Below, piece after piece: positions 47,661 to 51,549 of a stretch of DNA of 64,000 nucleotides. A model generated the notes under the pieces. That model had not been told where the DNA came from, ran no database searches, and saw only the letters and a list, made by a program, of their open reading frames with translations. Source of the DNA: the human T2T-CHM13v2.0 reference genome, Homo sapiens. The DNA lies in the NCBI RefSeq assembly GCF_009914755.1, contig NC_060932.1. The stretch is one strand, 5' to 3'. The number at the start of each line of letters is the position of its first letter. The first letter of the stretch is position 1. The translations under genes were made by a program, and so were the position numbers.

Positions 47661-47862
47661 CTTAAGACTGAGCTAAGGAGGGAGTTGCCACGGCTGCGAT
47701 GGGATTCCATGTTACTGATTATTATGGCTCTCGCAAGACCTCAACATGTTTGTTGAACTGCAGACTTGGCTATGGCCCCCAAATGAGCTAGTTTTGAATT
47801 ACAGAAGATTCAGTGCAGAATTGGGAAGTTGGAGGGGAAAAAATCTTGGTGTCACTATTCTT

Positions 47863-48492
47863 CTTTTTTTTTTTTTAGGGTAAACAAACTTTATCCCACA
47901 TAAATGGCAATGCAGTTATACTAAGCAAATGATATAATAAGCACGTTGCAATGGGAAGCAGAGAAGGGAAAAGAGATATATGTATATTTACACTCATCAG
48001 ACTATGGAGGATTCACCACCAGACTGGGAAGCAACACCCTGGGCTCCATAGTTGGCCACTTGTCTGTGCACAGATGAGGAGGGATCTCATGAAGCTTTGG
48101 CACAGTCTTGAGACTTAGCTCTTTTTTTTTTTTTTCAAGTTTTATTAACATTTATTTTTCCATTGGGAAATTTACTGATGCTGACAGTACTGGAGACACT
48201 TGATAGGGATATACAATTTTGTTTAGCTTCAGATTCAAAGACCAAACCACTAAACTTTCTTTCCAGTATCATCGTTTCTAGGAAGGTCAGATAAAGTTTC
48301 CTGAATACAAACTGGATCATGCTTCTCACTTAACATTCAACAGGTTTTTCAGCTTAGAATAAAAATTACATTCTACACTGTAATTTGTCCATCTCTTCCT
48401 CTCCAGCCACAGGTCCAATTTGACCCACTATTTCAGTCACTATGAACAATTAATGTTTGCCTGGGCCAGTATATCTGTCCCTATCATAACTG
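47863..48492 (-). other. Putative L1 3'-transduced DNA (two blocks, each ending in poly(A))
   Basis: Lies between the L1PA tail and the left TSD copy TGTCACTATTCTT (47850-47862); T13 at 47864-47876 and T14 at 48122-48135. Confidence 0.8.
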
Positions 48493-50392
48493 CATATATA
48501 TATATTTTTAATATATATATATTTTTATTATACTTTAAGTTCTAGGGTACATGTGCACAACGTGCAGGTTTGTTACATATGTATACATATGCCATGTTGG
48601 TGTGCTGCACCCATTATCTCATCATTTACATTAGGTATATCTCCTAATGCTATCCCTTCCCCCTCCCCCCACCCCACAACAGGCCCCGGTGTGTGATGTT
48701 CCCCTTCCTGTGTCCAAGTGTTCTCATTGTTCAATTCCCACCTATGAGTGAGAACATGCAGTGTTTGGTTTTTTGTCCTTGCAACAGTTTGCTGAGAATG
48801 ATGGTTTCCAGCTTCATCCATGTCCCTACAAAGGGCATGAACTCATCCTTTTTATGGCTGCATAGTATTCCATGATGTATATGTGCCACATTTTCTTAAT
48901 CCAGTTTATCATTGTTAGACATTTGGGTTGGTTCCAAGTCTTTGCTATTGTGAATAGTGCCACAATAAACATACGTGTGCATGTGTCTTTATAGCAGCAT
49001 GGTTTATAATCCTTTGGGTACATGCCCAGTAATGGGATGGCTGGGTCAAGTGGTATTTCTAGCTCTAGATCCTTGAGGAATCGCCACACTGTCTTCCACA
49101 ATGGTTGAACTAGTTTACAGTCCCACCAATAGTGTAAAAGTGTTCCTATTTCTCCACATCCTCTCCAGCACCTGTTGTTTCCTGACTTTTTAATGATTGC
49201 CATTCTAACTGGTGTGAGATGGTGTCTCATTGTGGTTTTGATTTGCATTTCTCTGATGGCCAGTGATGATGAGCATTTTTTCATGTGTCTGTTGGATGCA
49301 TAAATATCTTCTTTTGAGAAGTGTCTGTTCATATCCTTTACCCACTTGTTGATGGGGTTGTTTTTTTCTTGTAAATTTGTTTGAGTTCTTTGTAGATTCT
49401 GGATATTAGCCCTTTGTCAGATGAGTAGATTCCAAAAATTTTCTCCCATTCTGTAGGTTGCCTGTTCACTCTGATAGTAGTTTCTTTTGCTGTGCAGAAG
49501 CTCTTTAGTTTAATTAGATCCCATTTGTCAATTTTGGCTTTTGTTACCATTGCTTTTGGTGTTTTAGACATGAAGTCCTTGCCCATGCCTATGTCCTGCA
49601 TGGTATTGCCTAGGTTTTCTTCTAGGGTTTTTATGGTTTTAGGTCTAACATGTAAGTCTTTAATCCATCTTGAATTAATTTTTGTATAAGGTGTAAGGAA
49701 GGGATCCAGTTTCAGCTTTCTACCTATGGCTAGCCAGTTTTCCCAGCAATTTAATCCTTTTAATAAAAAGGATTTCCTATTTATTAAATAGGGAATCCTT
49801 TCCCCATTTCTTGTTTTTGTCAGGTTTGTCAAAGGTCAGATAGTTGTAGATGTGTGGTATTATTTCTGAGGGCTCTGTTCTGTTCCATTGGTCTGTATCT
49901 CTGTTTTGGTACCAGTACCATGCTGTTTTGGTTACTGCAGCCTTGTAGTATAGTTTGAAGTCAGGTAGCATGATGCCTCCAGCTTTGTTCTTTTGGCTTA
50001 GGATTGACTTGGAAATGTGGCCTCTTTTGTGGTTCCATATGAACTTGAAAGTAGTTTTTTCCAATTCTGTGAAGAAAGTCATTGGTAGCTTGATGGGGAT
50101 GGCATTGAATCTGTAAATTACCTTGGGCAGTATGGCCATTTTCACGATATTGATTCTTCCTATCCATGAGCATGGAATGTTCTTCCATTTGTTTGTATCC
50201 TCTTTTATTTCATTGAGCAGTGGTTTGTAATTCTCCTTGAAGAGGTCCTTCCCATCCCTTGTAAGTTGGATTCCTAGGTATTTTATTCTCTTTGAAGCAA
50301 TTGTGAATGGGAGTTCATGCATGATTTGGTTCTCTGTCAGGATACAAAATCAATGTGCAAAAATCACAGCATTCTTATACACCAATAATAGA
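48493..50392 (-). mobile_element. 5'-truncated L1PA (about L1PA4/5) with a short 5' inversion
   Basis: ORFs 48826..49332, 49338..49832 and 49777..50322 are close to L1 ORF2p; complete 3' UTR; TA-rich degenerate tail; 50338-50392 is sense-strand L1. Confidence 0.96.
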
Positions 50393-51549
50393 TGTCACTA
50401 TTCTTACTATGAGCGGTCTGATGTCATTGTGCCATCATTTGTCACCAGCTGCCTGGGGTTCAGTAGTGTCTATCACTGCAGTCTCTCAGAGGCAATTCTT
50501 GGGCATGAGATTATCATTTAGTAGGAAACTGAAATTGTAGTAAGTTTCAATTGAATACCTAGCACTAAAACTTTAGGAGCTCTCTGCATGTTGTAGCTAA
50601 TAGAAAAGCAAAGGTCTGAGAAATGGTAATATAGTTCTGGAATTTACGGTGCCATATTATGATTGTAAGAAGTAAAGGTATATTTATTTCTCTGTGGGTA
50701 AGAAGGTAGTACTTTAGGAGTGAGTATAATTAAGGAAGTGTTTTAGGTAGGGACTAAGTAATTTAATTTCCATAAACTATTAAGGCAATTCCAGTGTTAT
50801 TTTTCCCTAAGCCACCAAGAAAATGAAAATGTATTTTACCAGCAGTGTTTTTTGGTTTTTTTTTTGTTTTTTTTAACCAGAAGTTTGGTACATTATGGTC
50901 TTCAGCATTTTGTTTATGTTTAAGATGTACTTTCAAAGAGTTTTCTCCCTTAAACTATAAAAGTTACCTCTAACAACTTGTGGGGAGTTTTCCTGCATTT
51001 TCTGCATAGTTTGCCAATTCCCTGGTAAGTTTTTTAATACCTTTAGACACCAAATAGTCTCTTGCCTAAGAGGATACATACAAAAATGCTCTTTAGGCTA
51101 ACAAGAGGTTATTATTACATCATTAAGAATATTAAGAAACATTCAGGAGTTATGATTTATTCATTCAGCACACACATTGATCACTTCCTATAAAATAGGT
51201 ACTATGCTTGGCCCTAAGTATATCACCCATCGGCTAATGGAACACAAGCATACAAAATAAAACTTTAGTAGATACAGTTTGACAAATCCAATTATAAAAG
51301 AATGGAACAATGGTAACACAGACGAAGGCATGATTAAATATTTTTGGAGGGATGGAAAGTGTGGCTGAGTTAGGTCTTCAGTGAAGAATAAGGGCTCTCA
51401 ATATGTATATGCATGGTAGGGCACATGGAATAAGCACCTGCCCAAACAGAGCAGCATAGGATGCATAAGCTCACTGAAGAATGGAAAAGGCAGTAAGTAA
51501 TTGAAGGAGCATCAGAAAGGTTCCTGAAAACATGAAGAGGGTGATGGGT

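What the first reader, a model, noticed from the sequence alone, without database searches (positions are those of the whole stretch)
47850..50405. L1PA insertion carrying an apparent two-generation (serial) 3' transduction
Seen: TGTCACTATTCTT directly follows the L1 5' end (50393-50405). Its exact copy is not at the L1 tail (about 48493-48525) but about 630 bp further out (47850-47862), next to a T13 run. On the minus strand the unit reads: TSD, L1, degenerate tail, block A (48492-48136), A14, block B (48121-47877), A13, TSD. Block A has AATAAA 15 nt before its A tract (tttatt at 48151-48156). Block B has the variant signal GATAAA about 13 nt before its A tract. The reconstructed empty site TCTT/AC resembles the L1 endonuclease TTTT/AA target. 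Established: L1 read-through of its weak poly(A) signal mobilises 3' flanks. Inference: two successive source loci each added a flank, so the DNA records a grandparent-parent-daughter L1 lineage that standard repeat annotation would split into unrelated pieces.
Basis: partly seen in the sequence, partly recalled or inferred. Interest (0 to 1): 0.85.

Follow-up and report, generated by a model that had tools for sequence, protein, structure and literature searches.

The report
L1 insertion carrying two borrowed flanks
A dead L1 jumping-gene copy on human chromosome 8 drags along two short pieces of DNA copied from two other chromosomes, most likely picked up in two successive jumps, which is a known behaviour of L1 elements rather than a new one.

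Summary
An exact 13-bp direct repeat (47850-47862 and 50393-50405) brackets one minus-strand unit. Read 5' to 3', the unit is: a 53-bp inverted L1 piece, 1.8 kb of L1 (ORF2 residue 749 to the 3' end), a short A/TA tail, block A, A14, block B, A13.

- **Block A** has one other copy in the assembly, on chr11 (93.6% identical). There it ends at the same AATAAA site, followed by neither an A tract nor block B.
- **Block B** is the promoter-distal part of an endogenous-retrovirus LTR. It ends at that LTR's own poly(A) site. On a tree it is sister (support 99/96) to one LTR locus now present on five acrocentric short arms.
- **Source edges:** both 5' edges in the source loci sit on A5 runs that fit L1 endonuclease sites.

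So the two blocks come from two loci and the A14 is not native. This fits serial 3' transduction (about 0.65). The predicted progenitor L1s are absent from T2T-CHM13 at both source loci, and no sibling copies exist. Template jumping between polyadenylated RNAs, or nested insertions into tails, therefore remain possible. Multigenerational L1 transduction is already described in print. This is a new instance of a known kind and of modest interest.

The parts
50393..50405 (-). 5' target-site duplication (element sense strand is the window's minus strand)
   Evidence: Exact copy of 47850-47862.
50340..50392 (+). Inverted L1 ORF2 segment (5' inversion of the twin-priming type). It reads L1 sense on the + strand.
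   Evidence: in 38 of 39 other scored L1 copies, query nt 1-56 match the opposite strand directly next to nt 55/56-293 (3-nt gap in the first listed copy). and a direct reading give [17 protein letters not shown] with one frameshift.
48527..50339 (-). L1 body: ORF2 from residue 749 to its end, plus the 3' UTR. It is 5'-truncated and carries many in-frame stops.
   Evidence: first 186 aa match ORF2p residues 749-934 of 1275 (8uw3_A, E 1.8e-113). One search shows the stops; 3' end is 95-96% identical to 39 other scored L1 copies; 97-98% in ORF2.
48499..48526 (-). L1 tail and junction: AAAAATATATATATAT, then T, then AAAAATATATA. The second A5-(TA)n probably already belongs to the chr11-derived flank.
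   Evidence: chr11 reads TAT-AAAAATATACG-CAG at the matching place. The window has about 6 extra TA bases and the same 16-mer twice.
48136..48498 (-). Block A: copy of a unique chr11 locus, ending at its AATAAA-directed poly(A) site
   Evidence: only 2 genomic matches, self and C11:81784348-81784706 at 93%; 339 matches, 23 mismatches, 4 gap columns (93.6%); homology stops exactly after AATAAAACTTGA.
48122..48135 (-). Internal poly(A), A14. It is not present in either source locus.
47877..48121 (-). Block B: 245-nt part of an endogenous-retrovirus LTR, running from an internal A5 run to the LTR's own poly(A) site (GATAAA, with a GT-rich tract just downstream in the source)
   Evidence: 193 candidates, 40 scored; best non-self matches are 5 acrocentric copies at 91%; alignment with flanks; 6 rare shared variants, and sister to the acrocentric copies with support 99/96.
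47863..47876 (-). Terminal poly(A), A13, plus one G (c at 47863 on the + strand) next to the 3' duplication
47850..47862 (-). 3' target-site duplication

Best explanation
One target-primed reverse transcription event inserted a single composite RNA into chr8 at a TCTT/AC nick and produced a 13-bp duplication. The RNA read L1 3' part, short tail, block A, poly(A), block B, poly(A). It most likely arose by serial 3' transduction, in three steps.
1. A grandparent L1 sat directly upstream of block A on chr11. It read through its own signal to the AATAAA 360-375 nt downstream.
2. That L1+A copy landed inside an endogenous-retrovirus LTR, whose descendants now lie on the five acrocentric short arms. 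There it read through both earlier signals to the LTR's own poly(A) site.
3. This transcript inserted on chr8, where it was 5'-truncated and 5'-inverted by twin priming.

Shown here: the anatomy, the single duplication, the two separate source loci, the source poly(A) sites and the inversion. Inferred: that an L1 once lay at each source locus. Both progenitors would have been unfixed alleles that were later lost.
For: - **Single bracketing duplication.** It encloses the whole 2.54-kb unit, and L1, A and B have no duplications of their own.
- **Transduction layout.** The unit reads L1 3' end with AATAAA and a short tail, then non-L1 DNA, then poly(A), and this layout occurs twice. Partnered transductions with two poly(A) tails, and a multigenerational cascade carrying a second transduction tag, are described in PMC13009371 (passages, sections 6 and 10).
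- **Source of block A.** It has one other copy, on chr11, which runs through the 3' edge with no A tract and no block B.
- **Source of block B.** It is nested in an LTR family but shares 11 states with the acrocentric copies against the majority of 23 other copies. Six of these are rare, against at most 3 for any other copy. It is sister to the acrocentric copies with support 99/96.
- **Source edges.** Both source 5' edges lie on A5 runs: TAT/AAAAA on chr11 and TAC/AAAAA in the LTR. On the other strand these read TTTTT/AT and TTTTT/GT, which fit the L1 endonuclease preference in the orientation a sense L1 upstream would need. Starts of runs of 5 or more A make up only 0.57% and 0.31% of positions in those loci.
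- **Similar ages.** Divergences are alike: A 6.4%, B 7.8% (Fisher p 0.27-0.52). The L1 3' end is 95-96% identical to its best relatives.
- **Lost donors are plausible.** About 20% of germline L1 insertions carry 3' transductions, and donor elements can be polymorphic and absent from a reference (PMC6425141, passages).
- **Position of the partner.** Known template-switch or ligation chimeras put the partner RNA 5' of the L1, not 3' (bioRxiv 10.1101/2025.02.02.635956, Introduction).
Against: - **chr11 locus.** The 1.5 kb directly upstream of A has no match to L1 queries. A further 10 kb (chr11:81772000-81781999) has only matches at 71-78%. 848 bp between the two stretches were not read.
- **LTR locus.** At the acrocentric LTR, block B is preceded by the rest of the LTR. 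The nearby L1 at 86-88% identity is antisense to it.
- **No siblings or parent.** Block A has only 2 copies genome-wide. Of 22 further LTR loci, 21 have LTR sequence upstream of B's edge, and the remaining one (L024) has unrelated sequence that is not poly(A).
- **Two losses needed.** Two successive progenitors must both have been lost.
- **Divergence order.** B is slightly more diverged from its source than A is. This is the reverse of the order expected, though not significantly so.
- **Block B sampling.** Only 40 of 193 candidates for block B were scored.
- **Tail detail.** The junction tail holds the same 16-mer twice (48526-48511 and 48509-48494), which the model does not predict.
Confidence: 0.65

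Rival explanations
1. Template jumping during one insertion event. Reverse transcription started on a polyadenylated LTR-derived RNA (block B). It jumped at an A5 run onto the poly(A) tail of a chr11 transcript (block A), then jumped at another A5 run onto the poly(A) tail of an L1 RNA. This would give a three-part chimeric retrocopy without any L1 ever lying at the source loci.
For: - It explains directly why no progenitor L1 exists at either source locus and why no sibling copies exist.
- Both switch points lie on A5 runs that could pair with a poly(A) template.
- The single duplication fits one event.
- L1 chimeras formed by template switching or RNA ligation are established (bioRxiv 10.1101/2025.02.02.635956, abstract and Introduction).
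Against: - In the described chimeras the partner lies 5' of an L1 3' end, because L1 RNA is the first template (same preprint, Introduction). Here L1 would be the last of three templates, and priming would have started in trans.
- Neither block is a small structured RNA (one Rfam match at E 0.56, 19.6 bits against a gathering score of 60).
- Block A's edge lies about 10 nt or less from a TATAAAAA, too close for that to be its start-site TATA box.
- No evidence was obtainable here that either source is transcribed on its own.
Confidence: 0.15
2. Three separate insertions. The L1 inserted first with the 13-bp duplication. Later, two short 5'-truncated retrocopies (A, then B, or the reverse order) landed in the same orientation inside the existing poly(A) tail. 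Their own duplications would consist only of A and so cannot be seen.
For: - Poly(A)/poly(T) tracts are L1 endonuclease targets (established knowledge; TTTT/AA in PMC2912911, passages).
- No progenitor L1s are needed.
- The 5' edges on A runs could reflect microhomology with an A-rich target.
Against: - It needs two independent hits by rare short retrocopies in one target of about 15-30 bp, both in the same orientation.
- A, B and the L1 show similar divergence, which fits one time point.
- No inner duplication other than A runs is visible.
Confidence: 0.12
3. The 13-bp repeat is a chance match, and the blocks are ordinary local chr8 sequence next to an L1.
For: Exact 13-mer pairs do occur elsewhere in the window (13 pairs).
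Against: - The repeat abuts the L1 5' junction on one side and an A13 tract on the other.
- Blocks A and B each end in A tracts that are missing from their source loci.
- The chr8 flank is single-copy.
Confidence: 0.02

Closest known systems
L1 3' transduction, including multigenerational (serial) cascades
   Same: An L1 3' end with its own signal and tail is followed by foreign DNA that ends in a second poly(A). Here this is followed by a third block and a third poly(A). The whole unit lies inside one target-site duplication at a TTTT/AA-like nick. A cascade that keeps the first tag and adds a second is described in PMC13009371 (passages, section 10). Transduction families with a lineage progenitor and a donor are described in PMC6425141 (passages).
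   Different: In the published cases the progenitor and donor elements are identified. Here neither is present in the assembly, the event is old (6-8% divergence from the sources), and the second tag is part of an endogenous-retrovirus LTR that ends at the LTR's own poly(A) site.
L1 chimeric retrocopies (U6/L1 type; template switching or RNA ligation)
   Same: Several RNA-derived pieces lie inside one target-site duplication, made by the L1 reverse transcriptase.
   Different: In those chimeras the partner lies 5' of the L1 3' end and is often a full-length small RNA (bioRxiv 10.1101/2025.02.02.635956, Introduction). Here the partners lie 3' of the L1, each has its own poly(A), and none matches an Rfam family.
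5'-inverted L1 insertions (twin priming)
   Same: A short inverted L1 piece lies directly 5' of the sense piece and adjoins it in L1 coordinates. 5'-inverted copies make up 639 of 2068 human- and chimpanzee-specific L1 insertions (PMC2912911, passages).
   Different: Nothing unusual, apart from the short length (53 bp) of the inverted arm.

Membership tests
L1 3' transduction | An L1 3' end with its own poly(A) signal and tail, followed by non-L1 DNA that ends in a further poly(A) | tested here: met
   ...AAAGTATAATAAAAA(TA)n, block A, A14, block B, A13.
L1 3' transduction | The target-site duplication brackets L1 plus the appended DNA, not the L1 alone | tested here: met
   the only exact 13-mer pair in the region, at 47850 and 50393.
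L1 3' transduction | The appended DNA matches another locus, and the match ends at a poly(A) signal with no A tract in that locus | tested here: met
   Block A: (AATAAAACTTGA, then unique sequence). Block B: (GATAAA or GATACA, then a GT-rich tract).
L1 3' transduction | The source locus carries an L1 directly upstream in the same orientation | tested here: not met
   no L1 match in the 1.5 kb directly upstream on chr11, and only 71-78% matches in a further 10 kb. At the LTR locus the neighbouring L1 is antisense (86-88%). Absence from one assembly does not exclude a lost allele.
L1 3' transduction | An empty orthologous site with a single copy of the duplicated 13-mer | not testable with these tools
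   No other primate genome is on hand. There is no paralogous empty site in this genome (1 of 1 match is self).
Serial (multigenerational) transduction | Two tags from two different loci, separated by a poly(A) that neither locus contains | tested here: met
Serial (multigenerational) transduction | An intermediate element (L1 plus the first tag) is present at the second source locus | tested here: not met
   block A has only 2 copies; none of the 5 acrocentric copies or the 22 further loci has poly(A), block A or L1 joined to B's 5' edge.
Template-switch L1 chimera (U6/L1 type) | The partner RNA lies 5' of an L1 3' fragment | tested here: not met
   both partners lie 3' of the L1.
Template-switch L1 chimera (U6/L1 type) | The partner is a known small RNA | tested here: not met
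   no Rfam match below E 0.56.
Twin-priming 5' inversion | The inverted arm adjoins the sense arm in L1 coordinates | tested here: met
   in 38 of 39 other scored L1 copies the two arms match opposite strands at adjoining places.
Endogenous-retrovirus LTR (source of block B) | Copies occur as direct pairs that flank retroviral coding remnants | tested here: met
   L015 has two copies 3.7 kb apart in the same orientation; 2 of 7 frames between them match dUTPase (E 1.2e-14) and RT_RNaseH (E 2.7e-4, below Pfam's cut-off). The family name was not determined because no repeat library is on hand.

The most novel reading that the evidence does not exclude
The unit is a three-part chimeric retrocopy made in one event by end-to-end template jumping. 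The reverse transcriptase started in trans on an LTR-derived polyadenylated RNA, jumped onto the tail of a chr11 transcript, and only then jumped onto an L1 RNA. This is the reverse of the template order in all described L1 chimeras, and it would mean that some apparent orphan or serial transductions are really jump products.
Probability: 0.15. Interest if true: 0.5.

Novelty: new member of a known kind. Interest (0 to 1): 0.3.

Why it matters
If the serial reading is right, this one dead copy is the only surviving record of two extinct active L1 loci. One lay on chr11. The other lay inside an endogenous-retrovirus LTR in sequence that is now duplicated on all five acrocentric short arms. It also shows how ordinary repeat annotation can miss such a unit, because it would label an L1, a bare stretch and an LTR fragment separately. 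The mechanism itself is established, so the value lies in lineage tracing and annotation rather than in new biology.

Tried and rejected
- **Paralogous empty site.** I searched the genome with the chr8 flank and found only the flank itself.
- **Siblings or parents.** Block A has only 2 copies. The 5 acrocentric copies and 22 further loci of the block B family were read across B's 5' edge. Locus L024 looked truncated at the right place, but it is preceded by unrelated sequence that is not poly(A).
- **Progenitor L1s.** I compared the window's L1 and two other L1 copies with about 11.5 kb upstream on chr11 and about 11.5 kb upstream on chr22. Only old or antisense L1 turned up.
- **A 3' LTR partner of the acrocentric LTR** as an alternative source. 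There is none within 10 kb downstream.
- **Small-RNA identity of the blocks.** Rfam gave nothing.
- **Block A as a spliced terminal exon.** I rejected this because homology to chr11 runs through the possible cag acceptor into ATATA(C/T)G.
- **Block B starting at the LTR transcription start.** No TATA-like box lies 25-30 nt upstream (read by eye), so this stays undecided.
- **Naming the L1 subfamily and the LTR family.** This was not possible without a repeat library.
- **Literature.** The phrase 'serial transduction' together with LINE-1 found only one unrelated paper. Szak et al. 2003 on related L1s traced by transduced sequences is not held and is only recalled. No supplementary files were opened.
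Full report
**Observation.** The 13-mer TGTCACTATTCTT occurs exactly twice in the window, at 47850-47862 and 50393-50405, even with one mismatch allowed (2 matches; shuffles mean 0.19; 2 of 100 shuffles reached 2). 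It is the only exact 13-nt direct repeat in 47700-50600. Across the whole window there are 13 independent exact same-strand pairs of 13 nt or more lying 300-3500 bp apart, among 63,988 positions. Five of those belong to one pair of similar repeats near 1.0 and 4.5 kb. One copy of the 13-mer abuts an L1 junction and the other abuts an A13 tract, so a chance match is very unlikely.
- T13 at 47864-47876, with one extra c at 47863.
- T14 at 48122-48135.
- AATAAA (minus strand) at 48156-48151, with a second copy at 48146-48141.
- GATAAA at 47895-47890.

**Anatomy on the minus strand.**
- *Inverted arm.* The element starts with a short inverted arm, not with sense L1. When 50392-50100 was searched against the genome, 39 other scored L1 copies matched query nt 55/56-293 on one strand. 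In 38 of them nt 1-56 matched the opposite strand at the adjoining place, with a 3-nt gap in the first listed copy (2148 candidates, 40 scored). This is the twin-priming type of 5' inversion. Such copies make up 639 of 2068 human- and chimpanzee-specific L1 insertions (PMC2912911, passages).
- *Sense arm.* It begins at ORF2p residue 749 of 1275 (8uw3_A, E 1.8e-113). It carries many in-frame stops and runs to ...AAAGTATAAT at 48527.
- *Age of the L1.* Its last 375 nt are 95-96% identical to 39 other scored L1 copies (3264 candidates). The ORF2 piece is 97-98% identical to its best relatives. I could not name the subfamily without a repeat library. 'L1PA' is plausible but was not tested.

**Block A.** The genome holds exactly one other copy, at chr11:81784348-81784706 (2 of 2 candidates scored). 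With flanks aligned, homology starts in ATATA(T/C)GCAG and ends exactly after AATAAAACTTGA. The count is 339 matches, 23 mismatches and 4 gap columns, or 93.6%.
- On chr11 the sequence continues as unique DNA, with no A tract and no block B. The A14 was therefore added at the RNA level, and chr11 is the source, not the copy.
- Upstream, chr11 reads TTCTAT-AAAAATATACG. The window has T-AAAAATATA plus about six extra TA bases, so the copied stretch probably begins at that A5 run.

**Block B.** It is not unique sequence. It belongs to an interspersed repeat of about 0.53-0.59 kb (193 candidates, 40 scored).
- *An LTR.* At one locus two copies lie 3.7 kb apart in the same orientation. Frames between them match dUTPase (E 1.2e-14) and, weakly, RT_RNaseH (E 2.7e-4, below Pfam's cut-off), in 2 of 7 frames scanned. 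So it is an endogenous-retrovirus LTR.
- *Extent of block B.* It runs from an internal ...CATTAC-AAAAA-GAGCTA... to ...GTTTGTTTACCCT. In genomic copies a GT-rich tract follows. That is what an R/U5 poly(A) site looks like.
- *Closest relatives.* These are five near-identical copies on chromosomes 13, 14, 15, 21 and 22, at places that are low in the contig coordinates. They are 91.4-92.2% identical to B. The 23 other copies are 80.7-89.3% identical, and 253 background pairs average 87.6% (sd 3.1).
- *Specific kinship.* B shares 11 states with the acrocentric copies against the majority of the other 23. Six of these are rare, against at most 3 for any other candidate. A maximum-likelihood tree of 29 rows puts B as sister to the acrocentric copies with support 99/96 (the bootstrap had not fully settled).
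- *Context of the acrocentric copy.* It is a 5' LTR followed by internal retroviral sequence, with no second LTR within 10 kb downstream.

**What this settles.** The two blocks come from two different loci. Each ends at a poly(A) site encoded in its source. The A14 is native to neither source. One duplication encloses everything.

**What it does not settle.** Neither exists in this assembly.
- The 1.5 kb directly upstream of A on chr11 has no match to L1 queries. A further 10 kb has only matches at 71-78%. 848 bp between the two stretches were not read.
- The L1 near the acrocentric LTR is 86-88% identical and antisense to it.
- Block A has no third copy.
- Of 22 further LTR loci, 21 carry LTR sequence upstream of B's edge, and one (L024) carries unrelated sequence that is not poly(A).
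- There is no paralogous empty site, and no other primate genome was available.

**Mechanism.** I judge serial 3' transduction the most likely route, at about 0.65.
- The layout is that of transduction. Partnered transductions with two poly(A) tails, and a cascade carrying a second tag, are in print (PMC13009371, passages).
- About 20% of germline L1 insertions carry a 3' transduction, and donors can be polymorphic and missing from a reference (PMC6425141, passages).
- Both source 5' edges lie on A5 runs. On the opposite strand these read TTTTT/AT and TTTTT/GT, which fits the TTTT/AA preference in the orientation a sense L1 upstream would need. Starts of such runs make up only 0.57% and 0.31% of positions in the two loci.
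- Divergences are similar: A 6.4%, B 7.8% (Fisher p 0.27-0.52). Using a recalled neutral rate of roughly 0.15-0.2% per million years per lineage, they suggest an age of the order of 15-25 million years. This is a rough inference.

**Rivals.**
- *Template jumping* from B RNA to A RNA to L1 RNA (about 0.15). It explains the missing progenitors and also predicts A runs at the joints. However, it reverses the template order of all described L1 chimeras, in which the partner lies 5' of the L1 (bioRxiv 10.1101/2025.02.02.635956, abstract and Introduction). Neither block is a known small RNA.
- *Two later retrocopies inserted into the L1 tail* (about 0.12). This needs two rare hits in one target of about 15-30 bp.
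- *Chance* (about 0.02). Already contradicted by the source-locus results.

**Unexplained detail.** The junction holds the same 16-mer, AAAAATATATATATAT, twice (48526-48511 and 48509-48494), separated by one T. Slippage after insertion is the simplest account, but I did not test it.

**Novelty.** The mechanism is established. This instance, with both progenitors lost and an LTR poly(A) site used for the second tag, is a new member of a known kind. I searched the held library for 'serial transduction' with LINE-1, for transduction lineages and for 'second/nested/sequential/successive transduction'. No listing or passage that I saw mentions this chr8 element, but these searches did not query the locus itself, and I opened no supplements, so catalogues of transductions there may list it.

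Noticed in passing
window 48494-48526: The L1-to-block-A junction holds the identical 16-mer AAAAATATATATATAT twice, separated by one T. The second copy matches the chr11 flank (AAAAATATACG) apart from extra TA units. It could be slippage after insertion or a trace of how the joint was made.
   Followed up: partly
L004-L008 (chr22:4477520, chr21:2791410, chr15:2193998, chr14:1785380, chr13:5453732 in T2T coordinates): The LTR locus closest to block B is present on all five acrocentric chromosomes at 99.2-99.6% identity within the block B part. L004 and L005 are 98.7% identical over 3.2 kb. A single ancestral locus was therefore spread among these chromosomes long after block B was copied from it.
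   Followed up: partly
window 39914-39937 and 43145-43168: There is a 24-nt exact direct repeat, TTTTTTCCCAGTCTTGGATGCTAG, 3.2 kb apart. The surrounding sequence looks like two copies of an old interspersed repeat rather than a target-site duplication (read by eye).
   Followed up: partly
window 32342 and 35120: There is a 15-nt exact direct repeat, TGAATTAGACTTTTG, 2.8 kb apart. It was not examined and could be chance or the duplication of another insertion.
   Followed up: no
L015 (chr17:44870900-44876400): An LTR pair of the block B family flanks about 3.2 kb of DNA with dUTPase and RNase H-like remnants, in that order along the element. This order resembles ERV-L-type elements (recalled). 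The family was not named.
   Followed up: partly
L002:290-560 (chr11, about 1 kb upstream of block A): By eye this stretch looks like an ancient L1 ORF2 remnant. The L1 queries found no match anywhere in L002, so it is far too diverged to be the progenitor.
   Followed up: partly
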